From a virus, in IMG/VR virus record IMGVR_UViG_3300020430_000007: a stretch of 64,000 bases of DNA; one strand, 5' to 3'. Positions 49,411 through 63,573 of this stretch are shown here, one piece after another. Within the stretch, counting starts at the first letter, position 1; each line of letters opens with the position of its first letter. The notes beneath the pieces were generated by a model, which was given only the letters and a program-made list of their open reading frames with translations, was not told the origin of the DNA and did not search any database. The position numbers and the translations under genes were made by a program.

Positions 49411-50123
49411 TTAGCATTTAAGGCATCTTCTACTATTTGTATATGGTGTGGTCTATCAACACCTTGTGATCTATCTTTATCAGGGAGTAAAAGGGCATCA
49501 ACATGATACTTACCACAAAAACCAATGGTGTCTAATCCTTTCCAGTGTTTGACAAATGTCATGTCAAGATTAGGAAAATCAGCAATGACTGATCTCTTAT
49601 AAAAATACATTCCAAGTTGAGGGACAACATTGTCAGTCGCAATGTCAGGTGTTCTCATGAGATATAATACTCTACCATTGTTTATAGCCATTTGAACCAC
49701 ATCAGGATCCTCATAATCACCATCTAAAGTTTTTCTATATGGTTGAACCATGTCACTACAGTTATCAATTCCATATCTCACAATATAATCTATCTCTTTT
49801 GGATCTGCTAACGGTTCGTCTCCTTGTAAATTGAACACATAATCCACTCCCTGTAAATTTCGTGCTACCTCAGCAACTCTATGAGTACATGTATAATGTG
49901 ATTTAGTCATTATCGCTTCAAATCCCCATTGTTCAACAGTGTCTTTTATAATCTCATCCTCTGTAGCAACAATAATGCGATCAAAATATTTACATTGTTT
50001 TGGTATATCTGCTACTCGTAAGACTAATTCTCTCCCGTTTATTTTTACCAATGGTTTACCAGGAAATCTAGATGATGACATTCGTGCAGGCACAATGCAA
50101 GCGATGTTTTTTTCTCTGTACAT
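49407..50123 (-). CDS. kdsB: CMP-Kdo synthetase-like cytidylyltransferase
   Basis: IVPARMSSSRFPGKPL, IVATED, NLQGDEPL, GVDRP. Confidence 0.85.
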   Translation of the reverse strand: MYREKNIACIVPARMSSSRFPGKPLVKINGRELVLRVADIPKQCKYFDRIIVATEDEIIKDTVEQWGFEAIMTKSHYTCTHRVAEVARNLQGVDYVFNLQGDEPLADPKEIDYIVRYGIDNCSDMVQPYRKTLDGDYEDPDVVQMAINNGRVLYLMRTPDIATDNVVPQLGMYFYKRSVIADFPNLDMTFVKHWKGLDTIGFCGKYHVDALLLPDKDRSQGVDRPHHIQIVEDALNAK

Positions 50124-50128
50124 AATGT

Positions 50129-51034
50129 TTAGATGTTATCTTGTAGTCTACCAGACAATCTCATATCTGTCAAGTTTCGTTTTTGAAGATACTCTTTTGC
50201 CATAGTAGTTGCTAATTTATATCTATCACTTTCTTTATCGTATGGAAACATAGTATATTGTTTAGGGATTTTATTTTCACAAAAAATTTTATAATCATGG
50301 TTATCCAAATCAAGATAATCATATTCAATTTTATTATCTCTAAGTGTTTGTTCTACATTTCTATTGTTTCTAGTGAAATCGTCTAAATGTTTGAACACTA
50401 ATTCTTTATCAAGATACCATGCATCTTCTACATTTTTTACATTTACATTGAATGTTTTATTAGTAGCAGCAGATACAAATAGATTTATTCTAGCAATAGT
50501 AATATCTAATAAATTCTCTTTGTAGGGTATTATATTATTACATGTTCTAAAGTGTTTTGTAAATGGTTTATAGAATATTTGTGGATGTGGTTGAGGTAAA
50601 AATAGGTCACATGTGCATAAATCATTGAAGAAATGGTCATGCCATTTTCTACCATGATCTTCGTATATTGGATAAAGTTTTCTATTATTTTCTTTCCATG
50701 TTCCTACCTTGAATTTCGTTTTTGGTGGATTATTCTTGCCATATCCTAGATAATCTTCATATACAAAGTATTCTATCTTTATACCTGTATCTGTATAATG
50801 ATGTAGCAATTGCTCACTACTAAGACTATCAACTTTTATTACTGGAGTTATTGTGTCTGAGTCATCATATCTTTTATATTTTATATGGTGTTGATCTAAA
50901 TCATGATACTCCCATTTATGTGATACATACTTACCACCAATTTGCATTTGAGTGACAGTTTTTCTATTGTATCTAAATAAACCATTGAAATATGCTTTAC
51001 CATAGTGCCTAGCACCCCAGATGACAAATTTCAT
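50129..51034 (-). CDS. paralogous family protein, copy 1 (most diverged)
   Basis: GARHYGK, NIIPYKENL, IEYDYLDLDNHDY. Confidence 0.65.
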   Translation of the reverse strand: MKFVIWGARHYGKAYFNGLFRYNRKTVTQMQIGGKYVSHKWEYHDLDQHHIKYKRYDDSDTITPVIKVDSLSSEQLLHHYTDTGIKIEYFVYEDYLGYGKNNPPKTKFKVGTWKENNRKLYPIYEDHGRKWHDHFFNDLCTCDLFLPQPHPQIFYKPFTKHFRTCNNIIPYKENLLDITIARINLFVSAATNKTFNVNVKNVEDAWYLDKELVFKHLDDFTRNNRNVEQTLRDNKIEYDYLDLDNHDYKIFCENKIPKQYTMFPYDKESDRYKLATTMAKEYLQKRNLTDMRLSGRLQDNI

Positions 51035-51069
51035 ATCATGCTGTATAATGATCTTACTATAATATATCT

Positions 51070-51456
51070 ATGAAAAAAACACTACCACCCAACTACGGAT
51101 TTGACTTCCCTATACAATGGAAAAATGGTGATTTCAAAGTTGGTGATGCGGTAGTATGTGGTATGCAGAATCTAGACTATGGTATTGTATCATTTATAAG
51201 TAATGAATACTTGACAGTGTGCACCGCTTGTGGAACTGGCACAGATGAGTTACCACATAGAGATATAAAAGTGGTAGTATCTAAAGTAGTACCAATTAGA
51301 AAATTAGAAAAACATGAATATACCAAACTGGCAACATCACTCAAAAAAGGGTGCCAAACGGAGACTGCGACCTCAAAAATTGAGACAGGCAAGGAAAAGA
51401 CGCTCGCAATTTCTCACACGCTTAGAAAAAGAGTCGAAGAGAAACCAGTTGAATAA
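51070..51456 (+). CDS. hypothetical protein, probably leaderless
   Basis: TATAAT 51058-51063 lies 6 nt before ATG; FKVGD.V...GIVSFISNEYLTVC. Confidence 0.55.
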   Translation: MKKTLPPNYGFDFPIQWKNGDFKVGDAVVCGMQNLDYGIVSFISNEYLTVCTACGTGTDELPHRDIKVVVSKVVPIRKLEKHEYTKLATSLKKGCQTETATSKIETGKEKTLAISHTLRKRVEEKPVE

Positions 51457-51532
51457 GTGTCACAATCGCCCACACAAGGGTGATTTTTTTATGTATAATA
51501 TTAGTATATCAAACAAAACAACATGCCTGTAA
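51314..51532 (+). CDS. small basic hypothetical protein (MNIPNWQHHSKK...)
   Basis: Very basic peptide of a type I recall from cyanophages; overlaps the previous ORF by 143 nt. Confidence 0.55.
   Translation: MNIPNWQHHSKKGAKRRLRPQKLRQARKRRSQFLTRLEKESKRNQLNKCHNRPHKGDFFMYNISISNKTTCL
51443..51499 (+). promoter_or_regulatory. palindrome + TATAAT early promoter element, copy 1
   Basis: ACCAGTT-gaat-AAGTGTCAC-30nt-TATAAT. Confidence 0.75.
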
Positions 51533-53727
51533 ACATAGAAATCAAAGGTAACTTAGCAAGACTACTTGCCACTGAGAACCTTATTGTTGAGCACAAAAAA
51601 GTAGAGACTGCTCAATTCAACACACAAACAAGAGTTTTGACTCTACCCATATGGAATACATCAAGTAATTTTGTTTATGATATGCTCGTAGCACACGAGG
51701 TAGGTCATGCATTATTTACTCCATGCGTTGATTGGAAACAAGATAAGTACAAATCTGTACCTCACTCATATGTCAATATTGTAGAGGATGCACGTATTGA
51801 GAGACTCATGAAAAACAAATTTGCAGGTCTAAACAGAGATTTCTACAAAGGATATGAAGAGTTGAACTCAAGTGACTTTTTTGAATTGAGTGACAAAAAT
51901 GTCAATAAAATGAAATTTATCGATAAAATCAATCTATACTTCAAACTAGGTGCCTTTCTATGTCTTGAGTTCAATGATATTGAAAATCAATTCATCACTG
52001 AAATATCACAATCAGAAACATTTGAACAAGTTCTTGACATTTCACTTAGAGTTTATCAGTATTCTAAAGAGCAACAACAAGCAAGACAAAAAATGCTTGA
52101 CTTAGCACAAACAAGTGAAGATAAAAACAACAATGATGATGAGGATCTTCAATCACCATCATATCAAAGAGATTATCAATCAGAAAGTGATGATGAGATT
52201 GATGACTCTGCAGATATTGATGATCCTGATTTTGAACCATCAGATGAAGTTGACGATGATGATGAAATTGACGGTGGTAGCACTGCAGGCAATCATGCGG
52301 GTGATTGGAATAACATTGATGAGAGTGATACTCAAGATGCATTTGACAATAACAGTGAGAAACTCAGAGATACTGATAGTAAAGAAACCACTTATATCAA
52401 TCTACCAGAGGTAAGACTTGACAAAGTTGTTGTACCATTTGATGTTATCAATGAATACCTAACAGATCACTTTCTTACTGAGAAAACAAGTCAGCAAGAT
52501 AATCATACAAACTACGTTGGTAATGCGATTCTCAAAGACACAAATGATTTCAGACAGTACAAAAAGTCAGCATCTAAAGATGTCAATCACCTTGTAAAAG
52601 AGTTTGAAATGAAGAAATCAGCAGATTCATACGCTAGACAGGCAACTGCTAGGACAGGTGTTCTTGATACATCTAAATTGCATACTTATATGTTCAATGA
52701 AGATATATTCAAAAAGATAACTGTTATTCCAGAGGGTAAAAATCATGGTCTTGTGTTTTTACTTGATTGGTCTGGTTCAATGTCTAACATACTTGAGAAT
52801 ACTTTGAAGCAATTATTCAATCTAGTATGGTTTTGTAGAAAAGTCAATATACCTTTTGAGGTTTATGCCTTTACAAATGATTCATGGTCATTATGGGGTG
52901 ATTACAACGAGGAAACAAGATATTATGAACTTGATGGATCTAAACTTGTAAAGTCATACAATACAAATGATTTACATATTGAGGGTGGTTTCAGAATGGT
53001 AAACATTCTCACTAGCACTGCAAAATCTAAAGATATTGACAATATGATGCTAAATCTATGGTTACAAACAAGAGCGATGAACTTTCGCATGTATAATTGG
53101 GGTCGCAAGTTTACTTTATCAGGAACACCACTCAATGAAGCAATTGTGTGTGTAGGACAACTCACTAAGCAATTTATCAAAAATGCTAAGTTGCAAAAAT
53201 CTCATGTTATTATATTGACTGACGGTGATGGTTATCACCCATCATACAACCATAACTTTATATCCTCTCATACTGGTAAAGAGAGACAATGTGTAAATTC
53301 AGTGCCAACGTGGTCTAGCACAATTAGAGTGGGTAGTAGATCATTTATCTGCACCACTGGTGATGTTGATTTTACAAACAAAATGGTTGAAGCAGTAAAA
53401 AGCACATTACCAAACACAAGTTTTATTGGAATACGTATTCTTGATAGCAGATCATATTCATGTTTCTATAATAAGTTTGGTAGATTATCATTTGATTATT
53501 TTGAAGACATGAAGAGTGAACTAAGGAAAAACGGTGCGGTGTTCTTCAAAAACAAATCATTTGATTTATGGTGTGGAGTGGTTCAAAAATCATTACATAC
53601 AGATGCAGATCTAGAGGTAGATCAAGGTGCTGCAAAAAGACAAATCACTGCTGCGTTCAAAAAAATGAACAAGGGTAAGAAATCCAACAAATTCATGGTC
53701 AAAGAGTTCATAAAACAAATTGCTTGA
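51523..53727 (+). CDS. CobT-like HEXXH / von Willebrand A domain protein
   Basis: HEVGH, NIVEDARIE, acidic linker, LLDWSGSM (MIDAS), GTPLNE, LTDG. Confidence 0.85.
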   Translation: MPVNIEIKGNLARLLATENLIVEHKKVETAQFNTQTRVLTLPIWNTSSNFVYDMLVAHEVGHALFTPCVDWKQDKYKSVPHSYVNIVEDARIERLMKNKFAGLNRDFYKGYEELNSSDFFELSDKNVNKMKFIDKINLYFKLGAFLCLEFNDIENQFITEISQSETFEQVLDISLRVYQYSKEQQQARQKMLDLAQTSEDKNNNDDEDLQSPSYQRDYQSESDDEIDDSADIDDPDFEPSDEVDDDDEIDGGSTAGNHAGDWNNIDESDTQDAFDNNSEKLRDTDSKETTYINLPEVRLDKVVVPFDVINEYLTDHFLTEKTSQQDNHTNYVGNAILKDTNDFRQYKKSASKDVNHLVKEFEMKKSADSYARQATARTGVLDTSKLHTYMFNEDIFKKITVIPEGKNHGLVFLLDWSGSMSNILENTLKQLFNLVWFCRKVNIPFEVYAFTNDSWSLWGDYNEETRYYELDGSKLVKSYNTNDLHIEGGFRMVNILTSTAKSKDIDNMMLNLWLQTRAMNFRMYNWGRKFTLSGTPLNEAIVCVGQLTKQFIKNAKLQKSHVIILTDGDGYHPSYNHNFISSHTGKERQCVNSVPTWSSTIRVGSRSFICTTGDVDFTNKMVEAVKSTLPNTSFIGIRILDSRSYSCFYNKFGRLSFDYFEDMKSELRKNGAVFFKNKSFDLWCGVVQKSLHTDADLEVDQGAAKRQITAAFKKMNKGKKSNKFMVKEFIKQIA

Positions 53728-53782
53728 CCAGTTTACAAAGTGGTACATCATCGGTTGATTTACCACTTTTATCAATTATAAT
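53726..53782 (+). promoter_or_regulatory. early promoter element, copy 2
   Basis: GACCAGTT-taca-AAGTGGTAC-30nt-TATAAT. Confidence 0.75.
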
Positions 53783-53807
53783 ACTATTATACAAACAAAT
53801 CTTTATT

Positions 53808-54938
53808 ATGACACTTATTCCTCACAAATATACAGACGTTGAATTGTTTGACTTACTCAAAAAGTATGATGACTCAGCAATCACATCAAAAGACTTACAA
53901 GAGATTGCAGATCACTTTGATGTAAAAGTATCTTCACTACGTAGAAGAATGAAGAGAAAAGGTTTTGAGTACAATGCTAAGAAAAAAACATATGCATTGA
54001 CTAAAACTCAACTCAAATCTGCAAAAAAACAACTTGAGACACAATTTGAGAAACCTCATGTTTTTGCTACTGAGCAAAAAGAGAATCTTGTGCCTACTAT
54101 AGACGACACATTTATCAAGTTTGGTGCATTTCCTGATCTCAAGAAAATTATACAATCAAGATTGTTTTATCCTATCTTCATCACTGGTATGTCAGGCAAC
54201 GGAAAAACTTTCGGTGTTGAACAAGCATGCTCTCAAACTAAGAGAGAGCTTATCAGAGTAAACATCACTGTTGAGACTGATGAAGATGATCTTATCGGTG
54301 GTTTCAGACTTGTCAACGGTGAGACTGTATGGCATAACGGTCCAGTTATTGAAGCATTAGAGCGTGGTGCTATATTATTATTAGATGAAGTTGATCTTGC
54401 ATCTAACAAGATATTATGTTTACAATCTATTCTAGAGGGTAAAGGTGTATTTCTCAAAAAGATTGGTAAGTTTGTCAAACCTAATGAGGGTTTCAATATT
54501 GTAGCAACTGCCAATACAAAAGGTAAAGGCAGTGATGACGGTAGGTTTATTGGCACAAATGTTCTCAATGAAGCATTTCTTGAGCGTTTTCCTATTACCA
54601 TTGAGCAAGACTACCCCACTGTAGGTGTAGAGTCAAAAATATTGACTAAAGTTGCAGAGTCATTGAATATTCCTATGATAAGTGAGCACAAAAACTTCAT
54701 TACACACTTGTGCAACTGGGCAGAGATTGTTCGTAAGACTTTCAATGATGGTGGTGTTGATGAGATCATATCAACACGTAGATTGACTCACATCATGCGA
54801 GCATATTCTATCTTCGGTGATAAGATGAAGTCTGTTCAAATGTGTCTCAACAGATTTGATGATGAGACTAAGGAGTCATTTATTCAATTATACACTAAAT
54901 TGGATGATACTGTAAATGTTTCAGAGTCAACACAATAG
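53808..54938 (+). CDS. cobS: MoxR/CobS-like AAA+ ATPase
   Basis: GMSGNGKT, LLLDEVD, ATANTKGKG, LNEAFLERF, STRRL; ATG 53808. Confidence 0.9.
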   Translation: MTLIPHKYTDVELFDLLKKYDDSAITSKDLQEIADHFDVKVSSLRRRMKRKGFEYNAKKKTYALTKTQLKSAKKQLETQFEKPHVFATEQKENLVPTIDDTFIKFGAFPDLKKIIQSRLFYPIFITGMSGNGKTFGVEQACSQTKRELIRVNITVETDEDDLIGGFRLVNGETVWHNGPVIEALERGAILLLDEVDLASNKILCLQSILEGKGVFLKKIGKFVKPNEGFNIVATANTKGKGSDDGRFIGTNVLNEAFLERFPITIEQDYPTVGVESKILTKVAESLNIPMISEHKNFITHLCNWAEIVRKTFNDGGVDEIISTRRLTHIMRAYSIFGDKMKSVQMCLNRFDDETKESFIQLYTKLDDTVNVSESTQ

Positions 54939-54939
54939 G

Positions 54940-54967
54940 TTGACTCTTGATCTCAATCTGCTATAAT
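54940..54967 (+). promoter_or_regulatory. sigma70-type promoter
   Basis: TTGACT-16nt-TATAAT. Confidence 0.7.
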
Positions 54968-54974
54968 AAGAATG

Positions 54975-55165
54975 TAAGCGAGGTTGGTTGAGTAGGTTTT
55001 TTGTAGAAGGTTTGACTACTCTTCTGTAAAATGTATCCTCGCACGATTTTTGGGCATTGATATGGCAAGGGTGATCTCATTCCGACATGCTATGTAAGGA
55101 TTCTAAACGGTAGTCGGTGGAAAAGGTCTTCAAATCGAACCTCATGTCATGTAAGTCCCGATTTC
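54975..55165 (+). ncRNA. candidate structured ncRNA (two hairpin domains)
   Basis: Lies between two promoters with only ~10-codon ORFs; GCGAGG/CCTCGC and TTTTGTAGAAG/CTTCTGTAAAA stems, then GGG..ATATGGCA/TGTCATGT..CCC, GATCT/AGGTC, CCGAC/GTCGG. Confidence 0.5.
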
Positions 55166-55174
55166 AACACATTG

Positions 55175-55203
55175 TTGACAAACAGTCTTGTACATGCTAT
55201 AAT
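55175..55203 (+). promoter_or_regulatory. consensus sigma70 promoter
   Basis: TTGACA-17nt-TATAAT. Confidence 0.85.
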
Positions 55204-55254
55204 ATGTACATACAGACCTGAGAAGTCTCTAAACTCATTCATTGTCCCTTTATT

Positions 55255-55479
55255 ATGTTATTCATGAAAATCACTGGTTCATCTGCTATTGCTGCTGTAA
55301 ACTTTGGCGAGAACAATGCAGTAGGTGTGACATTTACCAGTAATGATACCGAGTACGGTTTTGTTGCTAAGGATGCTGCACTTGTTCGCACTGGTCTTGA
55401 GTCTGCCCTCTCAAAGGGTGAGTCCATCGGCAAGTTGATCTCAAACTATCGTACAACTGGACAACTAAAGGCAGTCTAG
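55255..55479 (+). CDS. hypothetical protein
   Basis: SSAIAAV...ESIGKLI; own promoter and terminator. Confidence 0.7.
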   Translation: MLFMKITGSSAIAAVNFGENNAVGVTFTSNDTEYGFVAKDAALVRTGLESALSKGESIGKLISNYRTTGQLKAV

Positions 55480-55514
55480 TTCATAACCACAACTGAATAC
55501 ATTGATTTATTTTT

Positions 55515-55538
55515 ACCCCTGATTGAGTCAGGGGTTTG
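55515..55538 (+). terminator. terminator hairpin
   Basis: ACCCCTGA-TTGAG-TCAGGGGT-TT. Confidence 0.7.
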
Positions 55539-55564
55539 CATTTTAAATTACATTGGAGATTATT

Positions 55565-56261: not shown

Positions 56262-57485
56262 ATGACAACTAAAGAGAATCCACAAAAGGATAACCATGTT
56301 ATATGTGGTTATCCTTTTTATGCTATTAGAAATGGTCCGAGTATAAACTATGCTCCATGTTGTTGGGCAAGGACAAAAAGCGTGTGTGGACCTCAAAACA
56401 CCCCTGCTATTGATTATTTCAAAGGCAATATATTCAATGAAATGAGGAGAGATATGTTGAGAGGTGTAAAGAGTGATTTGTTATTGGACACTTGCTCTTT
56501 ATGTTATAAAAATGAGGAGAATAACGGTTCATCTGCTAGACTTCAATCCGAGGTAGATTGGAGTGTGCTTGATAATTTTGATAGTGATGGTAAAATGATT
56601 GATAATAATAACAGATTTATAAAATTAGAACTCAATGCTTTTGGCAATCATTGTAACTTAGAATGTTATGAATGTCAACCAGACAACTCAAGTAGAAGGG
56701 AAGAGCGTTTGAAGAAGATGGGCACAAAGTGGCAAGCGATATTGGGTAAGTATTCATTTGTTGATAGGGATGTAAAAAAGAAAAATAAAGTGTTATGGAG
56801 AGAGTTTGTCAATGATTTAGTGCAACATAGTAGGAATATAAAAATGTTATCTTTTTGTGGTGGTGAACCAATGTCAATGGTATCACATTTTGATATATTG
56901 GATGCACTCATTGACAGTGGTGATTCTAAAGAGATAGAATTATATTATGTCTCAAATATGACAATGTTTACATTACCTAAAATGAGAAGATACATTGACA
57001 AATTCAAGTGGATGAACATACAATGGAGTGTGGATGGCATAGGTGAGAGAAATTATTGGTTGAGATATCCAACAAATTGGAACAATACTGTAAAAAATGT
57101 ATTAGACGTGCAACAATATCTTTATTATACTAAACCATGGAAAATAGGAAAGATTGAAGCAACAATAACACCATCATTATTAGGTGTACTCAAGTTGAGA
57201 GAGACAGTAGATTGGATGAATAAACATGATCTAATGCAAGATAATCCTATGATAAACAGAATTGATGAACCAAAAATATGTCAAACAAGACATTTACCAG
57301 ATGAGATAAAACAAAAGATAGGTGATGATGTCAAATCAGTGTCCGAGTATCATTATAATGATATGATGGAGAAGAGAGACCCTTATTATTTTGGGTTGGC
57401 AATAAAGTATTTTGATGCACTTGATAAATCAAGGGGCACTGACTGGAGAGCAACGTTTCCTGAGTTAGCATGTTATACCAACTAA
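56262..57485 (+). CDS. radical SAM protein with N-terminal twitch/SPASM-like Cys motifs
   Basis: PCC, C..CYKNE, CNLECYEC, GGEP, SVDGIG. Confidence 0.85.
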   Translation: MTTKENPQKDNHVICGYPFYAIRNGPSINYAPCCWARTKSVCGPQNTPAIDYFKGNIFNEMRRDMLRGVKSDLLLDTCSLCYKNEENNGSSARLQSEVDWSVLDNFDSDGKMIDNNNRFIKLELNAFGNHCNLECYECQPDNSSRREERLKKMGTKWQAILGKYSFVDRDVKKKNKVLWREFVNDLVQHSRNIKMLSFCGGEPMSMVSHFDILDALIDSGDSKEIELYYVSNMTMFTLPKMRRYIDKFKWMNIQWSVDGIGERNYWLRYPTNWNNTVKNVLDVQQYLYYTKPWKIGKIEATITPSLLGVLKLRETVDWMNKHDLMQDNPMINRIDEPKICQTRHLPDEIKQKIGDDVKSVSEYHYNDMMEKRDPYYFGLAIKYFDALDKSRGTDWRATFPELACYTN

Positions 57486-58300
57486 TTGACGTTAGATTTA
57501 CACCAGAATGTAAAGAACTTCATGAACTATTGACCGATAATTGTTTTGAGTTTGAGTCCTCTGATGATATTGTTAGTTCATTAGAAGAACATTATAACAT
57601 CAAGATTGAAAGTCTAGCATGGTGTAATGTGATCGACCAGATTGATAGTGATGGTAAAGTAACTGTCACATTGAATAACCAATGTGTTATAATACCTGCT
57701 ATAATGAATACAAGATTAGTTGGGATACCACCTAATTTTAGATATGATCCTAAAAGAAAACTTATTGGAGGTTTCAACATGATATTGGCAGAGTGGATAC
57801 ACAATTATAAATGCCATGATGATGCTGTAAATAATAGAGATATTGATCCCTATAACGGCTCACCATTTCAAATCTACAAAGATATGAGCAGTAAACGTAA
57901 GGGTAAGTTTTTTGAAATGATAGTTGCTGAGTATTGTGAAAATTTAGGATGTCTTGTAGAAAGAGCAACAAACTCTGAACATGATAGAATAATAAGTAAG
58001 CAGAAAGCAGAAATCAAGGGATCAACTTTATGGGAAGGTCACGATGAGTTGTTTAGATGGCAACAAATACGACCAAATCAAGATTATGACATTATGATAT
58101 TTCTTGCAATGTATCCTGATAGAGTTGATCTTTTTGCAAGTAAAAAGAAAGATGTAGTTGACTACGTTACAAAACAAGATGAGGATGGTAACTTTATCCA
58201 TAATCAACATGGTGGAAAGAGCGTTGATAGTGGTACATATTTCATACAAGGTAAACCATCTGATTTTCCATTTTTTAGACCCATACAAAGCGTAATATGA
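57470..58300 (+). CDS. PD-(D/E)XK restriction-endonuclease-like protein (likely internal start 57779), in frame with an upstream mini-gene
   Basis: KGKFFE...HDRII..AEIKGS, WQQIRP.QDYD; GGAGG RBS at 57767-57771; adjacent to two MTases. Confidence 0.65.
   Translation: MLYQLIDVRFTPECKELHELLTDNCFEFESSDDIVSSLEEHYNIKIESLAWCNVIDQIDSDGKVTVTLNNQCVIIPAIMNTRLVGIPPNFRYDPKRKLIGGFNMILAEWIHNYKCHDDAVNNRDIDPYNGSPFQIYKDMSSKRKGKFFEMIVAEYCENLGCLVERATNSEHDRIISKQKAEIKGSTLWEGHDELFRWQQIRPNQDYDIMIFLAMYPDRVDLFASKKKDVVDYVTKQDEDGNFIHNQHGGKSVDSGTYFIQGKPSDFPFFRPIQSVI
57650..57705 (+). promoter_or_regulatory. early promoter element, copy 3 (inside ORF)
   Basis: GATGGT-aaagt-AACTGTCAC-30nt-TATAAT. Confidence 0.65.
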
Positions 58301-59091
58301 AACTCAATGAAATACAGGAAAGAGATTGTATCGAGTATTTGAACACACTTGATGACAACTCAGTTGATCTTATCATTACTGATCCACCGTACAACATATC
58401 ATTTGATGGTGGCAAGGGATGGGATTCACAATGGAAAACTGAAGAGGATTATCTAAAATGGTGTGATACATGGACTACAGAGTTGGTACGTGTGCTAAAA
58501 CCTAATCGCATGATGATAGTGTGGGGTACTCTCAAAACAGATACATTTCTAAAATATAAACTATTGTTGAGTTCATATAATCAATTAGTATCACAAAATG
58601 AGATAGTGTGGAGTTATAATTGGGGTGGACGCACTAAGGATAATTTTGCACGTAAACATGAATATGCATGGTGTTATTCAAAAGGTGATAAGTTTCTATT
58701 CAATCGTGATGATGTAAGAGTTGAGCGTAAAGTGAAAAGAAATCTAAGAACTGGTGAGAATTATAGTCAGGGAACTATACCTACATGTGTATGGGAAAAG
58801 AATAATCATACAGCAAGTAAGGAACACTGCGGGTGGCACCCTACAACCAAAAACTTAGATGTGATATCAAGAATGGTAAGAGCATATTCAAACGAGGGTG
58901 ATACTGTTTTAGATATATTCATGGGTAGTGGATCAACTGCTATTGCATCTATGATGAATAAACGTAATTATGTTGGATGTGAACTTGATCCTAATTATAA
59001 TGAATTGATGAAAGAAAGAATATCATCTTATGCCACTAATACTATTGGCACAATACAACAACCAAATCCCATATTATCTACTATTGCATGA
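58297..59091 (+). CDS. beta-class DNA amino-methyltransferase (DPPY, probably m6A)
   Basis: TDPPY, HPTTK, DIFMGSGST, GCE. Confidence 0.92.
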   Translation: MKLNEIQERDCIEYLNTLDDNSVDLIITDPPYNISFDGGKGWDSQWKTEEDYLKWCDTWTTELVRVLKPNRMMIVWGTLKTDTFLKYKLLLSSYNQLVSQNEIVWSYNWGGRTKDNFARKHEYAWCYSKGDKFLFNRDDVRVERKVKRNLRTGENYSQGTIPTCVWEKNNHTASKEHCGWHPTTKNLDVISRMVRAYSNEGDTVLDIFMGSGSTAIASMMNKRNYVGCELDPNYNELMKERISSYATNTIGTIQQPNPILSTIA

Positions 59092-59957
59092 TGAAAGACA
59101 CAATCTTATATGGAGACTGTCGTGATACACTCAATAATGTAATAAATTCGTCAGTGCAGATGTGTGTTACATCCCCCCCTTATTATGGTCTTAGAGACTA
59201 TGGTGGTGAGGATTCACAAATTGGACAAGAGCAAACACCTGAGGAGTATATCAAACAATTAGTTGACTTGTTTAGTGTAGTAAGAGACAAACTAAAAGAT
59301 GATGGTGTATTATGGGTGAATATTGGTGATAGTTATTATAACTATAGGAGTGGTAAAGGTCAAGCATTACCAAAACAAACAGTGAGCAAAACTAATCAAG
59401 ACTTACCCACTAAATGCAATCGTAGAGCAAATAAACTAAAAGGATATAAAGAAAAAGATTTGATGGGCATACCATGGATGTTAGCATTTGCACTACGTGC
59501 AGATGGATGGTATCTTCGTCAGGATATCATATGGCACAAACCTAATCCAATGCCTGAGTCAGTGCGTGATAGATGTACAAAATCACATGAATATATTTTC
59601 CTATTGAGTAAGAATAGAAATTATTATTTTGATGTTGATGCCATCAAAGAACCAACAAGAAGAAAGAGGAGTGTGTGGAATGTGACAAAGAGACCATATA
59701 AGGGTGCACATTTTGCAGTATTCCCACCTGATTTGATTGAACCATGTATATTGGCAGGCAGTGACAAGGGTGATATCATATTAGATCCGTTTATGGGTAG
59801 TGGTACAACTGCACTGGTAGCAAAATCCTTAGAAAGACATTTTATTGGATGCGAATTGCATCAACAATATGATAACCTAATAAAAGAGAGATTGAGCAAT
59901 GTGACAATCAAGAAACCTGCACAGTCTACACCAAATCCATTAGAACTACTGCTATAA
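59088..59957 (+). CDS. beta-class N4-cytosine methyltransferase (M.SmaI/Cfr9I-like)
   Basis: TSPPYYGLRDY, GIPWMLAFAL..DGWYLRQDIIWHKPNPMPES, HFAVFP, DPFMGSGTT. Confidence 0.92.
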   Translation: MMKDTILYGDCRDTLNNVINSSVQMCVTSPPYYGLRDYGGEDSQIGQEQTPEEYIKQLVDLFSVVRDKLKDDGVLWVNIGDSYYNYRSGKGQALPKQTVSKTNQDLPTKCNRRANKLKGYKEKDLMGIPWMLAFALRADGWYLRQDIIWHKPNPMPESVRDRCTKSHEYIFLLSKNRNYYFDVDAIKEPTRRKRSVWNVTKRPYKGAHFAVFPPDLIEPCILAGSDKGDIILDPFMGSGTTALVAKSLERHFIGCELHQQYDNLIKERLSNVTIKKPAQSTPNPLELLL

Positions 59958-59958
59958 T
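59901..59958 (+). promoter_or_regulatory. early promoter element, copy 4
   Basis: GTGACAAT-caaga-AACCTGCAC-30nt-TATAAT. Confidence 0.65.
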
Positions 59959-59980
59959 ATTATTGTAAACAAAAAAACCA

Positions 59981-60130
59981 ATGAGTTCAGTTCAAACAGT
60001 TACTACCAAACATCACACTATACTGATTGATCGTGATGATTATCGTCAAATCAAAAATGAGTGTAAAAGACTTGATGTAACTATTGACTATTACTTTTTT
60101 GAGTTTCAATTCTATCAGGATGAAAACTAA
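59981..60130 (+). CDS. small hypothetical protein (49 aa)
   Basis: MSSVQTV...VTIDYYFFEF; hand translated. Confidence 0.6.
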   Translation: MSSVQTVTTKHHTILIDRDDYRQIKNECKRLDVTIDYYFFEFQFYQDEN

Positions 60131-60267
60131 TGAGAAAATATACAGTCTCAGCACTTGTAGAGGGTTATCGTATTGAGGATCAAATCGTTGCAGTCTCAAT
60201 ACATCAAGCAATCAAACTCATGCAAGCAAAATACAGCAACGCAAGCAACATTTACTGTCTACACTAA
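60130..60267 (+). CDS. small hypothetical protein (45 aa)
   Basis: MRKYTVSALVEGYRI...; TAATG coupling. Confidence 0.55.
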   Translation: MRKYTVSALVEGYRIEDQIVAVSIHQAIKLMQAKYSNASNIYCLH

Positions 60268-60272
60268 TTATT

Positions 60273-60410
60273 ATGAACATTCCAACATATGACTTTCCAC
60301 AGTCACCAATTTTGATTATTGGATTCTTCGGAATCTTTACAGCACTACTCGTGTTATACATTGCAAACAGGGATTATTTTTCTAGTCCATACAATCAAGA
60401 TAAGAGGTAA
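60273..60410 (+). CDS. small membrane protein (45 aa)
   Basis: MNIPTYDFPQSPILIIGFFGIFTALLVLYIANR. Confidence 0.55.
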   Translation: MNIPTYDFPQSPILIIGFFGIFTALLVLYIANRDYFSSPYNQDKR

Positions 60411-60411
60411 T

Positions 60412-60603
60412 ATGAAATACAATGTCACTTACGTTGAGTTTGACTTTGATGATGAAGTTATCTCAAAAGATGAAAGAATCGAAATCACTAATGACCACAT
60501 AGGTGTGTGGGATGCTATTGATGAAGATGACCTAATCGATGAAATTACAACCTCTTCAAATTGGTGCGTCAAAAATATTGATTATGTGTACCAGTTGAAA
60601 TAG
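60412..60603 (+). CDS. small hypothetical protein
   Basis: MKYNVTYVEFDF...DEDDLIDEIT...WCVK; GAGG RBS. Confidence 0.65.
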   Translation: MKYNVTYVEFDFDDEVISKDERIEITNDHIGVWDAIDEDDLIDEITTSSNWCVKNIDYVYQLK

Positions 60604-60645
60604 TGTCACATACACCCTAGCATTTTGTTTTGTACCGATTATAAT
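60588..60645 (+). promoter_or_regulatory. early promoter element, copy 5
   Basis: GTACCAGTT-gaaa-TAGTGTCAC-30nt-TATAAT. Confidence 0.75.
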
Positions 60646-60669
60646 AGGTACATAACAAACAAACACATT

Positions 60670-60918
60670 ATGCCAAACTTCTCAGATTTTCTAGACTACG
60701 TTTATATGTTCTACAATGACAACGATGGTCTATATCCCATTTCAAAACTCACAAAGGCAGAAATTGCACTTGCTACTCTTCGTTATCTTGATGAGATCAA
60801 TGAAAAAGATGATGACAATTTCACATGGGGTTATGGTGACACTATTGACAGAGAGCGTGTAAGAAATCACATTGTTATGAATCGTGAATCAGTCAAATCA
60901 CTAAACTGGAGTAAGTAA
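60670..60918 (+). CDS. hypothetical protein
   Basis: FLDYVYMFY..GLYP..DTIDRERVR. Confidence 0.7.
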   Translation: MPNFSDFLDYVYMFYNDNDGLYPISKLTKAEIALATLRYLDEINEKDDDNFTWGYGDTIDRERVRNHIVMNRESVKSLNWSK

Positions 60919-61073
60919 TGTTTGCAATATTCACTTCGCCCATCAAATTCTCAAAGTCATACAAAAATGCTTGTAAAATTGCAGATGACTATTACAACAA
61001 AACTGGTCAAGTTGTAGCAGTTGAGAGCATAAGCAAATCTAGTGTATGGCATTTACCCTCTTTAGCATCATGA
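60918..61073 (+). CDS. small hypothetical protein (51 aa)
   Basis: MFAIFTSPIKF...; hand translated, coupled at both ends. Confidence 0.5.
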   Translation: MFAIFTSPIKFSKSYKNACKIADDYYNKTGQVVAVESISKSSVWHLPSLAS

Positions 61074-61255
61074 ACAAAACTCAAAACGATCAATGCATCA
61101 ACTTTATGAGTTTAGCATTACAATACTTTTGTGAAGCAAATTCGTTACCATTTATGTCAGCAGATGATCTATTATATGGTCAGATAGTGACAACAACTAA
61201 ACAAAAGTTATGGTTACATAGTTATATGCAACTTTGGCAATCGTTAGACATATAA
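61070..61255 (+). CDS. small hypothetical protein
   Basis: LPFMSADDLL..QKLWL. Confidence 0.6.
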   Translation: MNKTQNDQCINFMSLALQYFCEANSLPFMSADDLLYGQIVTTTKQKLWLHSYMQLWQSLDI

Positions 61256-61305
61256 TAACATTATCTTGCAATTATTCTTTTATTCTTCACATTATTCGTT
61301 CTATT

Positions 61306-61461
61306 ATGTCCTCTAAAAAGTATCAACAATTACAGATCAATTTGACCGCAGTAAGTGATAAGCAAAGAGAGGCTAAACGCCATGAATTGTTGTCACTTAG
61401 TGAGCATAATTTAGTGAATAAACATCATAATAAACCATGGAGGACAATCAACAACTATTAG
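61306..61461 (+). CDS. small hypothetical protein
   Basis: MSSKKYQQLQI...KPWRTINNY. Confidence 0.5.
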   Translation: MSSKKYQQLQINLTAVSDKQREAKRHELLSLSEHNLVNKHHNKPWRTINNY

Positions 61462-61462
61462 T

Positions 61463-61519
61463 GTGACAGTAAACAAACTGTCCACATTTTCCCTATTCCT
61501 GATAATTGTTGACTATAAT
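61463..61519 (+). promoter_or_regulatory. early promoter element, copy 6
   Basis: GTGACAGT-aaaca-AACTGTCCA-29nt-TATAAT. Confidence 0.75.
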
Positions 61520-61599
61520 AAAGACATAACAAGGATGCTAACATTCACAAGTGCTTAGGGATACCATCCTTGTTATACAAGTTTTTTATCGTGTTTATT

Positions 61600-61818
61600 A
61601 TGATCCACTCATTACATTTTGGAAGAGCATTTTGGTTGAATCTTGATAATGAGCTCATGTCCGCACCATGGTTGAAAACTGGTGAGGTTTTAGACGGAAC
61701 TTATGGAACTGATGACCAATCTGACTACGTTTGTGAGTGGACTGATTTTGAAGGGGTTGATATAGCATTATTACTCAAAATTCACAAAGATTTATTACTT
61801 GCTGAGACAGTTCAATAA
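61600..61818 (+). CDS. hypothetical protein
   Basis: MIHSLHFGRAFWL... Confidence 0.6.
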   Translation: MIHSLHFGRAFWLNLDNELMSAPWLKTGEVLDGTYGTDDQSDYVCEWTDFEGVDIALLLKIHKDLLLAETVQ

Positions 61819-61861
61819 CTGTCACAGCATTGCCCCATAACTCTACAAGGGGCATTATAAT
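61804..61861 (+). promoter_or_regulatory. early promoter element, copy 7
   Basis: GAGACAGTT-caat-AACTGTCAC-30nt-TATAAT. Confidence 0.8.
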
Positions 61862-61883
61862 AAGAACATATACAGAAAAACTC

Positions 61884-62072
61884 ATGAACATTGCAACATC
61901 AAAATTTTTATATAGAATCTCAACACCTAATAAAATTGTAGGTGATGACATTTTTACAAATGATCTAAACTCAGCAACTCTATTTTGTTTAGAATGTGCT
62001 AGAGATTATGGATCTGCAGCAGTTTACAATCATCAGACAGGCAAACTCATACAGACTATAGGACAGTCATAG
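61884..62072 (+). CDS. hypothetical protein
   Basis: ATG 61884 after promoter element. Confidence 0.6.
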   Translation: MNIATSKFLYRISTPNKIVGDDIFTNDLNSATLFCLECARDYGSAAVYNHQTGKLIQTIGQS

Positions 62073-62117
62073 AACTGTCACAGTGACACGTGCAATATTA
62101 TCTCAATGCACTATAAT
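62061..62117 (+). promoter_or_regulatory. early promoter element, copy 8
   Basis: GGACAGT-catag-AACTGTCAC-30nt-TATAAT. Confidence 0.8.
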
Positions 62118-62143
62118 AAAATCATAACAGAAATTTACAAACT

Positions 62144-62326
62144 ATGTCAACATTACACCACGAATCACTCTTAGAAACATGCTACGATGAAGCATGGGAA
62201 GAATACAGAAAAGAGCACAATCTCACCTCAGATCAACTATATGCATTAGAGCAAAATTCAGAGCATGGTTATTTACCAGTCATCGCTGACAATGCTAGGA
62301 AAAAATTTGATGATTTATGCATGTAG
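62144..62326 (+). CDS. hypothetical protein
   Basis: MSTLHHESLLETCYDEAWE. Confidence 0.7.
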   Translation: MSTLHHESLLETCYDEAWEEYRKEHNLTSDQLYALEQNSEHGYLPVIADNARKKFDDLCM

Positions 62327-62327
62327 T

Positions 62328-62383
62328 GGACAGTTCACAAACTGTCTATTTTTTTACACATGCTCTATAATAGGCATTATAAT
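62328..62383 (+). promoter_or_regulatory. early promoter element, copy 9
   Basis: GGACAGTT-caca-AACTGTCTA-29nt-TATAAT. Confidence 0.8.
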
Positions 62384-62414
62384 AAGTACATAACAAACAA
62401 ACAATCCTTTCTAC

Positions 62415-62699
62415 ATGACAATCACAGAATACAAACAACTCATCAAAAATGATACTCTTATGATAGGTCTTGACGTATCTGAAGAGAAAACAAACAAAAT
62501 CATCAACAGAATACTAGAGGTTGATAATTTTCAAAACGTCGCATGCTATTGTGCAGACTTCTCAGAATTTGTAGAAGAGTTAGCAGAATGGGGAGTTGAC
62601 GGATGTGCAAAAGTTTACTTCGATGACCCAGATTTGAATATTGCTAAACTTGATGCATTTATCAAGGCAGAAAACGGTTACATCAGAGAGGGCAAATAA
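62415..62699 (+). CDS. hypothetical protein
   Basis: 94 aa ORF after promoter. Confidence 0.7.
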   Translation: MTITEYKQLIKNDTLMIGLDVSEEKTNKIINRILEVDNFQNVACYCADFSEFVEELAEWGVDGCAKVYFDDPDLNIAKLDAFIKAENGYIREGK

Positions 62700-62700
62700 T

Positions 62701-62979
62701 ATGCAATTACAATCTAAAACCTCAAAAGATGTACCATCACCAGTAACAGTAGATTATTATCAAATCAAGGGAACCGATCAAGTAAGATTGAGAGTAATTA
62801 CATTACTAGGCAAAACTCTCAATAAGACTTGCATCGAAGTACATGATATGGCAAGAGAGATTGATAATTTATTATTACATGAATTTGCAGTAACTGTCAA
62901 TACCAACCGACCTAGACAGATTGTGCCAGTCAAAGAAGTGGCACAATGTCTCACACATTACCATGCTCAGGCATTATAA
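62701..62979 (+). CDS. hypothetical protein
   Basis: MQLQSK...VDYY; GAGGG RBS. Confidence 0.6.
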   Translation: MQLQSKTSKDVPSPVTVDYYQIKGTDQVRLRVITLLGKTLNKTCIEVHDMAREIDNLLLHEFAVTVNTNRPRQIVPVKEVAQCLTHYHAQAL

Positions 62980-62980
62980 T
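62923..62980 (+). promoter_or_regulatory. early promoter element, copy 10
   Basis: GTGCCAGT-caaag-AAGTGGCAC-30nt-TATAAT. Confidence 0.8.
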
Positions 62981-63013
62981 AAGTACATAACAAACAAACA
63001 ATCCTTTCTACAT
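62969..63013 (+). repeat. 45-bp exact direct repeat of 62372-62416 (promoter -10 plus leader)
   Basis: AGGCATTATAATAAGTACATAACAAACAAACAATCCTTTCTACAT twice. Confidence 0.9.
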
Positions 63014-63014
63014 C

Positions 63015-63359
63015 ATGCGTAAAATCGAATCACAAATGAACAATGCAATCAAAAACAAAATTGCATGGTCTAAAGACAACACACTCACCACTTTTGACAA
63101 TACTCTTGAAAATTGCTTTGTTTACCTACATGGAAATCATATTGCAACTTACAATTATGAATCTCAAGAGTTATCCTTATTCGATGGCGGATGGCAGTCC
63201 AATACAACTAAATCTAGACTCAACGCACTTTGCTATGAGTTTGCAACTGGTTTTTCAGTATTTCAAAAAAACTGGAATTGGTTTGTAAGTGACTTTCAAG
63301 CAAAAACAATCAAGAATTTCACTGACGGCATTACAGTAAATTACAACGGATGTTTCTAA
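63015..63359 (+). CDS. conserved phage hypothetical protein
   Basis: MRKIESQMN, VYLHGNHIA, DGGWQSNTTKSRLNAL, VFQKNWNWF. Confidence 0.8.
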   Translation: MRKIESQMNNAIKNKIAWSKDNTLTTFDNTLENCFVYLHGNHIATYNYESQELSLFDGGWQSNTTKSRLNALCYEFATGFSVFQKNWNWFVSDFQAKTIKNFTDGITVNYNGCF

Positions 63360-63399
63360 TAACATCCTCTACAAATCACTCTACTAAGTAACAACTATC

Positions 63400-63573
63400 A
63401 TGAACAATTTCTACTCTTTTTCTTATCAACAATCAGACGATGATTATCAAGCAGATTTTAACTATAATTGTACACAATTTGTTGATGAAGATGATATTTT
63501 TTCTACTATAGATGCACCGTCTATATATGAAACAATAGACAAAGAAACACAGTCAATTCTTAACACTTTCTAG
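63400..63573 (+). CDS. small acidic hypothetical protein (57 aa)
   Basis: MNNFYSFSYQQSDDDY...; hand translated. Confidence 0.45.
   Translation: MNNFYSFSYQQSDDDYQADFNYNCTQFVDEDDIFSTIDAPSIYETIDKETQSILNTF

What the first reader, a model, noticed from the sequence alone, without database searches (positions are those of the whole stretch)
49422..63457. 14-kb TTAA-free domain covering the early genes and a nuclease/methyltransferase cassette
Seen: reading line by line I find TTAA at 49418, once at 55543, then not again until 63458 and 63560. Elsewhere it is common (about 8 in 47.6-49.0 kb, about 9 in 23-24 kb), so roughly 80-120 would be expected in 14 kb. The zone is equally AT-rich, spans genes on both strands (kdsB and 50129..51034 on minus, early genes on plus) and shows synonymous escape (ATC AAA, TTC AAT, CTC AAA, GTC AAT); genes whose last codon ends in T use TGA/TAG (53725, 56259, 61459). 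Inference: strong local selection against a TTAA-cutting (MseI-like) nuclease. Either this DNA enters or is expressed first and must survive until the phage DPPY methyltransferase protects the rest of the genome, or the phage's own nuclease at 57779-58300 cuts TTAA (for example host or competitor DNA) and nearby DNA is exposed before methylation. Region-limited site avoidance is not expected in a circularly permuted T4-like genome.
Basis: partly seen in the sequence, partly recalled or inferred. Interest (0 to 1): 0.92.

Follow-up and report, generated by a model that had tools for sequence, protein, structure and literature searches.

The report
Restriction-site-free early-gene island in cyanophage
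A 14-kb block of early genes in this marine T4-like cyanophage, and the matching block in its relatives and in cultured phages such as P-RSM4, has lost TTAA and other restriction-type DNA words that are common elsewhere in the same genomes, which suggests this block must survive DNA-cutting enzymes without protection.

Summary
Between 49,422 and 63,457 there is one TTAA, against 44-85 expected (codon-shuffle null 81 +/- 5). Both edges are sharp: on the window's own scaffold TTAA returns to normal density after 63,458.

It is more than a TTAA effect. CCAAG, AGCT and CATCTC also drop out of the same stretch. Five related contigs each have a single 8.7-18.4 kb TTAA-free domain at the same position, despite saturated synonymous divergence. 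Several of them also lack GGATG, GGTGA, GGATC, CASTG, GCWGC, GGWCC, RGCY or CCGG there, on both strands. Cultured P-RSM4 has such an island that coincides with its small-ORF early block, and Syn9 has an AGCT-free one.

TTAA itself is very probably the target of the phage's own PD-(D/E)xK nuclease. Phages with this nuclease and no working MT1 methylase have no TTAA at all (S-ShM2: 0 against 586 expected).

My best reading is a restriction-proof early-gene island, analogous to the T5 first-step-transfer DNA and the T7 leading region. Why it is limited to one region of a T4-like genome is unresolved.

This scan has noted similar islands on other DNA; I found none in print for T4-like phages.

The parts
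49422..63457 (.). TTAA-free island (one TTAA at 55,543). Also nearly free of CCAAG/CTTGG (none from 49,612 to 64,405), AGCT (two copies between 44,144 and 64,125) and CATCTC/GAGATG (none from 47,415 to 65,575).
49407..50123 (-). KdsB-like cytidylyltransferase. Leftward gene at the left edge of the island; the last TTAA before the island (49,418) lies in its 3' end.
   Evidence: Pfam PF02348
50129..51034 (-). Leftward gene of 301 aa with no family match; lies inside the island.
51021..51049 (+). Sigma-70-type promoter-like site (11 of 12 matches) in the divergent intergenic region, at the head of the rightward block.
51523..53727 (+). Conserved cyanomyovirus 'peptidase' (phrog_459, T4-GC_146). 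It lies inside the TTAA-free domain in all six genomes.
53808..54938 (+). CobS-like AAA+ ATPase (AAA_5).
55175..55203 (+). Perfect sigma-70 consensus promoter-like site (12 of 12, with TG); a second good match lies at 54,940-54,967.
55515..55546 (+). Intrinsic terminator hairpin with its T-tract, which holds the only TTAA in the island (55,543).
56262..57485 (+). Twitch-domain radical SAM protein (NF033640), directly upstream of the nuclease.
57470..58300 (+). PD-(D/E)xK restriction-type nuclease of 276 aa. The conserved domain is 57,779-58,300; the N-terminal extension occurs only in the closest relatives. Inferred target: TTAA.
58297..59091 (+). MT1: beta-class DPPY (N6-adenine type) DNA methyltransferase. 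Inferred to be the TTAA methylase that protects against the nuclease.
59091..59957 (+). MT2: beta-class SPPY (N4-cytosine type) DNA methyltransferase. Not linked to TTAA: its orthologs sit in P-RSM4 and P-HM2, where TTAA is normal.
59981..63359 (+). Run of about 12 small co-oriented ORFs in phage families of unknown function, ending with a Kyano_Gp96 gene (63,015-63,359). This is the typical cyanomyovirus early block.
60640..62992 (+). Six copies of a promoter-like element (a TATAAT box followed by AAnnACATAACA), each in front of a small ORF. There is no good match elsewhere in the window.

Best explanation
The stretch is the early-gene block of a T4-like cyanophage. It is co-oriented, carries sigma-70-type promoters, and holds the 'peptidase', CobS, a nuclease/two-methylase operon and many small ORFs. 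Ongoing purifying selection keeps it free of the recognition words of sequence-specific DNA nucleases. TTAA is the most conspicuous word because a sub-family of phage-borne PD-(D/E)xK nucleases, including the one at 57,470-58,300, very probably cuts TTAA, with MT1 as its protecting methylase. With MT1 present the rest of the genome tolerates TTAA at reduced density, but the early block tolerates none. The same block is also cleared of other restriction-type words, in sets that differ between lineages. In function it resembles the first-step-transfer DNA of T5 and the leading region of T7-like phages: DNA that has to work while nucleases are still active, so it cannot rely on modification or on inhibitors made later. 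What is shown: the depletion, its limits, its conservation under saturated divergence, its action on both strands, its match to the early block in P-RSM4, and the link between nuclease, methylase and TTAA. What is inferred: that nucleases are the selecting agent for the other words, and that early exposure is the reason for the regional limit. How the rest of a supposedly circularly permuted genome escapes the same selection is not resolved. Candidate answers are staged or transcription-gated exposure of the DNA, or tolerance and repair of cuts outside the block.
For: (1) The depletion is extreme and survives Markov and codon-shuffle nulls. Edges are sharp on both sides. (2) The five relatives fetched as whole contigs each have a single outsized TTAA-free gap at the same position: 14.0, 11.7, 10.9, 8.7 and 18.4 kb, against next-largest gaps of 2.3-4.9 kb. 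Four-fold sites between these genomes are only 40-66% identical, so the absence is maintained and not inherited. (3) Other words are lost from the same stretch, in both orientations, while their O/E is about 1 elsewhere. Under strict criteria 0 of 52 same-length control tiles lose any word. Control palindromes GATC, CATG, GTAC, AATT and GANTC are not depleted. (4) In cultured P-RSM4 the gaps (GGTGA 40,382-52,922; GGATC 40,603-54,464) match the 44-ORF small-gene block PRSM4_056-099 (40,472-54,393), with 0 of 20 control tiles affected. Syn9 has a 24.9-kb AGCT-free stretch that includes its main small-ORF region. (5) The window's island carries sigma-70-type promoters and a repeated promoter-like element found nowhere else in the window. 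(6) TTAA and the nuclease: S-ShM2 has 0 TTAA against 586 expected; nine viral loci with the nuclease and no live MT1 have none and a tenth has 2 against 54 expected; four of them keep a methylase remnant that lacks the catalytic motif. The nuclease domain folds as a PD-(D/E)xK restriction-type enzyme (pLDDT 92). (7) Region-limited avoidance has published precedent: T5/BF23 (PMC10644984) and Autographiviridae (PMC12455610).
Against: T4-like phages are held to package by headful, giving circularly permuted ends, so no fixed leading end is expected. Logan contigs that bridge the left edge have the same k-mer depth as contigs wholly inside the island (32.1 against 32-36; 11.9 against 12.0), so there is no sign of a T5- or SPO1-like long terminal repeat. 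If the whole genome enters at once, the hundreds of unprotected sites outside the block should be cut as well, and a simple race model gives equal selection per site everywhere; some further, unknown asymmetry is therefore required. In G003 the domain covers the leftward glycan-type genes and not the small ORFs or the nuclease/MT1 pair. R-M systems are reported to be uncommon in marine picocyanobacteria (PMC6708340). No transcript data were available for this phage. P-HM2, S-PM2 and S-BM3 show no island.
Confidence: 0.55

Rival explanations
1. Self-inflicted, proximity-limited restriction. The phage's own TTAA nuclease, made next to its gene by coupled transcription and translation, meets nearby DNA before MT1 has acted, so only the neighbourhood of the cassette has to lack TTAA.
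For: The nuclease family does track TTAA loss. In the window, G002, G004 and G005 the cassette lies inside the TTAA-free domain.
Against: In G003 the nuclease and MT1 lie outside the domain, and MT1 contains TTAA. G001 has the domain but no nuclease in 122 kb, though that contig is only 66% complete. Nine other loci with both nuclease and MT1 carry TTAA at ordinary density around these genes, seven of them inside the genes themselves. The model does not explain the other lost words, or the P-RSM4 island, where I found no homolog of this nuclease.
Confidence: 0.1
2. Selfish rescue of the block. When a phage genome is shredded by host nucleases or by those of a resident phage, a variable early block with no internal target sites survives as one fragment. 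It can then recombine, through its conserved flanks, into a co-infecting relative. Selection would act on the block and not on the phage.
For: This needs no asymmetry in exposure and fits circular permutation. It explains the all-or-none clearing of a whole block bounded by conserved genes. A 270-bp island segment is 84% identical to P-RSM4 and S-TIM4, although the genomes are otherwise too diverged for nucleotide matches. Nuclease-bearing cyanophages are common.
Against: Island genes and flank genes give the same closest pairs (G001/G005, G002/G004, window/G003) for the peptidase, CobS, MT1 and KdsB, so there is no sign of block exchange at this scale. The conserved peptidase and CobS genes lie inside the island, although they could serve as homology arms. 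No direct evidence was obtained.
Confidence: 0.12
3. Avoidance of methylation and not of cutting. The lost words are targets of phage or host methyltransferases, and methylated bases in early DNA are harmful, for example to host RNA polymerase or through modification-dependent nucleases.
For: The islands of the window and of P-RSM4 each encode two DNA methyltransferases. The fold search also returned methyl-directed enzymes, NhoI and Eco15I.
Against: Up to ten or so words are lost against one or two methylases per phage. Phages with the nuclease and a dead methylase lose TTAA completely, which points to cutting. Modification-dependent nucleases would also strike the rest of the genome.
Confidence: 0.07
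4. A relic of history. The block was recently acquired from a phage lineage that lacks TTAA entirely, or is an assembly chimera with one, and has not yet regained the sites.
For: Entirely TTAA-free cyanophages exist, such as S-ShM2. Cyanophage genomes are mosaic.
Against: Six lineages with saturated synonymous divergence each keep zero TTAA in the same block. Island and flank relationships agree. GC content is flat and no repeats bracket the island. Contigs from independent runs cross the left junction without a mismatch. The isolate P-RSM4 shows the same kind of island.
Confidence: 0.04
5. No DNA-level selection. The pattern comes from codon usage, amino-acid composition, selection on mRNA, or is a generic property of small-ORF regions.
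For: The island differs mildly in composition from the structural genes (CAGG, ACCT and similar words).
Against: The codon-shuffle and local Markov nulls fail by more than 10 sd. Asymmetric words are lost in both orientations although the genes are co-oriented. Other small-ORF blocks in P-RSM4, Syn9, P-HM2, S-PM2 and S-BM3 lose no words.
Confidence: 0.01

Closest known systems
First-step-transfer (pre-early) DNA of phage T5 and BF23
   Same: A block of roughly 10 kb holding early takeover genes behind host-type promoters. T5 itself resists EcoRI and EcoRV (PMC10644984, which cites Davison & Brunel 1979); from my own recollection of that work, not checked here, the FST DNA lacks the EcoRI sites present elsewhere and new sites there make T5 sensitive. 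The size, as a share of the genome, is similar.
   Different: T5 has fixed ends, a long terminal repeat of about 10 kb and a demonstrated two-step DNA transfer. Here the phage is T4-like, with presumed headful packaging. Contig depth gives no sign of a terminal repeat, entry order is unknown, and many more words are purged.
Leading (first-injected) region of T7-like Autographiviridae
   Same: Only restriction motifs in the early-entering region decide sensitivity; the same motifs elsewhere are harmless (PMC12455610). That region is variable and rich in anti-defence genes.
   Different: That case concerns one Type I motif and a known transcription-driven entry from a fixed end. Here there are several short Type II/IIS-like words, and no leading end is known.
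Genome-wide restriction-site avoidance in phages
   Same: The same kind of words (4-5 bp palindromes and Type IIS sites) are removed by synonymous changes. The window also avoids CCGG, GCGC and CGCG throughout.
   Different: Classical avoidance covers the whole genome. Here most of the lost words are at normal frequency outside one block.
Virus-encoded Type II R-M systems (chlorovirus R-M systems; MseI-class TTAA systems)
   Same: A small PD-(D/E)xK nuclease translationally coupled to a beta-class amino-methyltransferase in a lytic virus. Comparative data point to TTAA as the target. That chloroviruses encode such systems and use them on host DNA is from my own knowledge.
   Different: No sequence comparison with R.MseI or M.MseI was possible, and specificity has not been tested biochemically. 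A second, SPPY-type methylase sits in the operon.

Membership tests
FST / leading-region type restriction-site-free early DNA (T5, BF23, T7-like) | Restriction-type words are absent from one region but present elsewhere in the same genome | tested here: met
   TTAA 1 against 44-85 expected. CCAAG 1 against 14-15 while its O/E outside is 1.08. Several words are lost in relatives and in P-RSM4.
FST / leading-region type restriction-site-free early DNA (T5, BF23, T7-like) | The region carries the first-expressed (pre-early or early) genes behind host-polymerase promoters | tested here: inconclusive
   Sigma-70 consensus sites and a repeated promoter-like element are present, and the P-RSM4 island matches the canonical small-ORF block. 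No transcript data were available for this phage.
FST / leading-region type restriction-site-free early DNA (T5, BF23, T7-like) | The region lies at a fixed genome end and enters the cell first | not testable with these tools
   Only assembled contigs of public runs were available, with no raw reads. No contig breaks fall at the island edges.
Long direct terminal repeat carrying takeover genes (T5, SPO1) | Twofold read depth over the repeat compared with its flanks | tested here: not met
   Contigs that bridge the edge and contigs inside the island have equal k-mer depth in two runs (32.1 against 32-36; 11.9 against 12.0). This is weak evidence: depth is per contig and the sample type is unknown.
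Type II restriction-modification system with target TTAA (MseI class) | A PD-(D/E)xK nuclease gene coupled to a DNA methyltransferase gene that has intact catalytic motifs | tested here: met
   The ORFs overlap (57,470-58,300 and 58,297-59,091). MT1 has DPPY and FMGSG. The nuclease model has pLDDT 92 and matches I-Ssp6803I, EcoRV, NhoI and PvuII.
Type II restriction-modification system with target TTAA (MseI class) | The recognition sequence is TTAA | tested here: inconclusive
   The comparative evidence is strong: phages with the nuclease and no live methylase have 0 TTAA (S-ShM2 0 of 586; nine loci with none and a tenth with 2 of 54), and MT1 tracks partial depletion. It remains indirect. 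No cleavage or protection assay exists, and more distant nuclease homologs (30-32% identical) sit in genomes with normal TTAA.
Type II restriction-modification system with target TTAA (MseI class) | Sequence homology to R.MseI or M.MseI | not testable with these tools
   No REBASE sequences are held. Pfam, NCBIfam and PHROGs give only generic N6_N4_Mtase matches and no family for the nuclease.
Mobile genomic island or inserted element | Flanking repeats, a shift in composition, or recombinase genes | tested here: not met
   No repeats bracket the island and GC content is flat. Pfam and PHROGs scans of the island's genes returned no recombinase family. Gene relationships agree between island and flank.

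The most novel reading that the evidence does not exclude
A clade of T4-like cyanophages, including the cultured generalists P-RSM4/S-TIM4 and perhaps Syn9, does not expose its whole chromosome to the cytoplasm at once. The early block would be exposed first, by polar or staged entry or by transcription-gated unmasking of otherwise shielded DNA, and would make broad anti-nuclease functions before the rest becomes accessible. This would be a T5-like two-step infection logic inside the T4 architecture.
Probability: 0.25. Interest if true: 0.9.

Novelty: new variant of a known kind. Interest (0 to 1): 0.8.

Why it matters
Region-limited restriction avoidance is the classic genomic mark of DNA that meets host defences before the phage can protect itself. 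Until now it has been tied to phages with fixed ends and staged entry, such as T5 and the T7-like phages. Finding it in T4-like cyanophages, sharply bounded, under active selection and covering several words, matters for three reasons.

First, it implies an unrecognised asymmetry in how these abundant ocean viruses begin infection. Because P-RSM4/S-TIM4 and Syn9 are cultured, this can be tested directly.

Second, the lost words give a sequence-only readout of which nuclease specificities each phage lineage faces.

Third, the work identifies a probable phage-borne TTAA restriction-modification system. Losing its methylase forces a genome to shed every TTAA. The system could also help explain how cyanophages without modified bases tell their own DNA from host DNA while degrading the host chromosome.

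Tried and rejected
- **Whole genome:** none is held for this window. The window's own scaffold was recovered through the nuclease protein instead.
- **Near-identity search of the phage collection:** found no close relative.
- **Terminal-repeat or genome-end test:** every public run holding this DNA is kept only as contigs. Read starts and true depth could not be measured. No joints or contig ends fall at the island edges.
- **Literature:** no paper on cyanophage TTAA avoidance was found. The Syn9 transcriptome paper is not held, so the overlap between the Syn9 AGCT-free stretch and measured early genes could not be checked.
- **Anti-restriction genes:** PHROGs and Pfam scans of the small ORFs gave only families of unknown function.
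- **MT1 specificity from cellular genomes:** the one close bacterial homolog (66% identical, in a Dehalococcoidia MAG) is an orphan methylase coupled to dnaE, in DNA with normal TTAA. This is uninformative on specificity.
- **Rejected readings:** codon usage or composition, selection on mRNA (both orientations are lost), a generic small-ORF effect, a mobile island and an assembly chimera.
- **S-BM3:** it has MT1 and a distant nuclease homolog. It shows 7-fold genome-wide TTAA depletion but no island, so the island is not an automatic result of carrying the methylase.
Full report
**1. The observation.** There are 179 TTAA up to 49,418, then only 55,543, 63,458 and 63,560. The expectation for 49,422-63,457 is:
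- 51 from the density in the rest of the window;
- 85 from a local maximal-order Markov model;
- 43.5 after correcting for the roughly 2-fold depletion seen outside the domain (p = 6e-18);
- 81.2 +/- 5.4 when synonymous codons are shuffled within the island genes, with 65 the lowest of 300 shuffles.

GC content is flat across the edges. Synonymous escape can be counted. None of 138 (F/L/I/V)(K/N) dipeptides in the island uses xTT|AAx, against 81 of 388 outside. One of 114 Leu-Axx pairs uses TTA|A, against 68 of 414 outside. TCAA/TTGA, one transition away from TTAA, is the most enriched 4-mer. The only internal TTAA sits in the T-tract of an intrinsic terminator. The nuclease protein led to the window's own scaffold (L109, 100% identical over the overlap). 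On it TTAA resumes at once after 63,458, with 17 sites in 4.8 kb, so the domain is bounded on both sides.

**2. It is not only TTAA.** An unbiased gap scan and a domain-versus-rest test show that CCAAG/CTTGG vanishes from 49,612 to 64,405. It occurs once against 14-15 expected, while its O/E outside is 1.08. AGCT occurs twice against 28 by codon shuffle (O/E outside 0.31). CATCTC occurs 0 times against 6.8. CCGG, GCGC and CGCG are absent from the whole window.

**3. Conservation.** The 'peptidase' gene retrieved 80 viral loci. The closest ones (47-59% amino-acid identity) all carry long TTAA-free stretches at the same position. I fetched the whole contigs of five relatives. Each has exactly one outsized gap:

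| Contig | TTAA-free gap (kb) | Next-largest gap (kb) |
|---|---|---|
| G001 | 14.0 | 3.9 |
| G002 | 11.7 | 2.3 |
| G003 | 10.9 | 4.9 |
| G004 | 8.7 | 3.1 |
| G005 | 18.4 | 2.5 |

Four-fold degenerate sites between these genomes are only 40-66% identical, which is at or near saturation. The absence is therefore maintained by selection in each lineage. The domain always contains the divergent intergenic region, the peptidase gene and cobS. In G001, G002, G005 and the window it runs through most or all of the co-oriented block of small ORFs and ends close to the next strand switch; in G004 it stops within that block. In G002 the block ends at 71,651, the first TTAA is at 71,787 and opposite-strand genes start at 71,887. 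G003 is the exception: its domain covers the leftward glycan-type genes, and the nuclease and MT1 lie outside it.

**4. An island that has lost several words.** In these relatives the same stretch has lost other words that are at normal frequency elsewhere, and it has lost them in both orientations.
- G001: CASTG 0 against 24, GGATG 0/21, GGTGA 1/33, GGATC 2/26, RGCY 0/18, CGATG 0/11.
- G002: GCWGC 0/18, GGATG 0/16, GGATC 1/20, and CCGG 0/15 although the contig holds 144 copies elsewhere.
- G005: CASTG 2/46, GGTGA 1/43, GGATC 1/34, RGCY 2/47.

Under strict criteria each island loses 1-6 words, and 0 of 52 same-length control tiles loses any. GATC, CATG, GTAC, AATT and GANTC are not depleted. 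Loss on both strands rules out selection on mRNA. The local Markov and codon-shuffle nulls rule out composition.

**5. Cultured phages.** P-RSM4 belongs to the same species as the generalist S-TIM4. It has an island with CGATG 0/13, GGATC 1/19, GGWCC 0/10 and GGTGA 2/14, and 0 of 20 control tiles is affected. Its edges match the block of 44 small ORFs, PRSM4_056-099, which lies between a 2OG-oxygenase cluster and the baseplate genes. Syn9 has a 24.9-kb AGCT-free stretch that includes its main small-ORF region (0 against 15; 0 of 9 control tiles). P-HM2, S-PM2 and S-BM3 lose no words, and neither do the second small-ORF blocks of P-RSM4 and Syn9. The pattern is therefore not a generic property of small-ORF regions. 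Syn9 and S-TIM4 are generalists whose early genes were transcribed in all 12 resistant-host interactions tested (PMC6708340). With so few genomes the link to host range is only suggestive.

**6. What selects against TTAA.** MT1 has DPPY ahead of FxGxG, which marks a beta-class N6-adenine methylase. MT2 has SPPY, the N4-cytosine type. TTAA depletion tracks MT1: 11 independent sequences with an ortholog have O/E 0.13-0.44, and 60 without one have 0.65-1.2 (p = 2e-7). The one exception is a 7-kb contig that lies wholly inside an island. MT2 orthologs occur in P-RSM4 and P-HM2, where TTAA is normal.

The nuclease domain folds confidently (pLDDT 92) as a PD-(D/E)xK restriction or homing endonuclease. 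Earlier notes of this scan suggested that a look-alike nuclease/methylase pair targets TTAA, so I tested the idea myself.
- S-ShM2 has a nuclease homolog and no MT1. It has 0 TTAA against 586 expected in 179.6 kb.
- Nine viral loci with the nuclease and no live MT1 have none, and a tenth has 2 against 54 expected. In four of them the adjacent 207-aa remnant lacks the catalytic motif.
- Phages with more distant nuclease homologs (30-32% identical) have normal TTAA.

I conclude that this nuclease sub-family very probably cuts TTAA and that MT1 is its protecting methylase. This rests on comparison, not on biochemistry.

**7. Why the R-M pair alone does not explain the island.** Nine loci that carry both the nuclease and MT1, outside the island clade, have TTAA at O/E 0.5-0.73 around these genes, and seven of them have TTAA inside the genes themselves. 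G003 has TTAA inside MT1. G001 has the island but no nuclease in 122 kb. The other lost words have no matching methylases. A model based on proximity to the nuclease gene is therefore not general.

**8. Mechanism.** The best reading is that the early block is kept intrinsically resistant to sequence-specific nucleases, whether they come from the host, from the phage itself or from rival phages. The published parallels are the T5/BF23 first-step-transfer DNA (PMC10644984) and the first-injected region of T7-like phages (PMC12455610). The difficulty is that the rest of the genome keeps hundreds of these sites. A simple race between cutting and counter-measures predicts equal selection on every site, so some asymmetry in exposure is required. 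Contig depth gives no sign of a long terminal repeat. Raw reads that could map genome ends were not available. The options that remain are staged or polar entry, transcription-gated unmasking of shielded DNA, tolerance of cuts outside the block, or selection on the block itself through rescue by recombination. Against that last option, island genes and flank genes give the same closest pairs. No repeats bracket the island and its composition does not shift, which argues against a mobile element.

**9. Novelty.** I found no published description of such islands in T4-like cyanophages. Other agents of this scan have noted restriction-word-free early regions in other marine phages. I treated those notes as leads and did not re-test them. 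I class the finding as a new variant of a known kind: site avoidance of the FST or leading-region type, in a phage architecture where it is not expected.

Noticed in passing
window 1-64000: CCGG, GCGC and CGCG are absent from the whole 64-kb window (about 35, 44 and 23 expected on both strands), and GGCC occurs 3 times. This avoidance covers the whole window and is separate from the island.
   Followed up: partly
NC_015281 (S-ShM2), loci L165-L173: The cultured Synechococcus phage S-ShM2 has no TTAA in 179,563 bp, against 586 expected. It carries a homolog of the nuclease next to its helicase gene and has no MT1.
   Followed up: yes
window 56262-57485: A twitch-domain radical SAM gene (NF033640, 241 bits) overlaps the start of the nuclease gene. 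The five related contigs gave no match to it.
   Followed up: no
window 57470-57778: The nuclease has an N-terminal extension of about 103 aa. It is conserved only in the closest relatives (276-aa forms, P0001-P0015); other homologs are 171-195 aa.
   Followed up: partly
L154 10001-10738 (Dehalococcoidia MAG): A 66%-identical MT1 homolog in a marine bacterial MAG is an orphan methylase whose start overlaps the end of dnaE. TTAA is not depleted around it.
   Followed up: partly
window 62413-62683: One small-ORF segment is 84% identical in nucleotides to P-RSM4 (51,303-51,573) and S-TIM4, although the genomes otherwise give no nucleotide-level match. This suggests recent exchange of an early gene.
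   Followed up: no
window 49422-63457: ATCAAG/CTTGAT is strongly enriched in the island (35 against 9 expected from the rest of the window). It is the product expected from both TTAA-to-TCAA and CCAAG-to-TCAAG changes.
   Followed up: no
window 46854-49410: Three tandem leftward genes of about 275-290 aa are paralogs (28-33% identical) with no family match. They belong to the glycan-type cluster that flanks the island.
   Followed up: no
NC_015284 (P-HM2) 123092-146727: P-HM2 has a 23.6-kb gap in AGCTG/CAGCT (161 copies elsewhere). The gap is not in its small-ORF block and no other word shows it.
   Followed up: no
window 40000-44000: A GC-richer stretch (0.43) inside the structural genes has long gaps in A-runs (AAAA absent from 40,975 to 42,324). 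This looks compositional.
   Followed up: no
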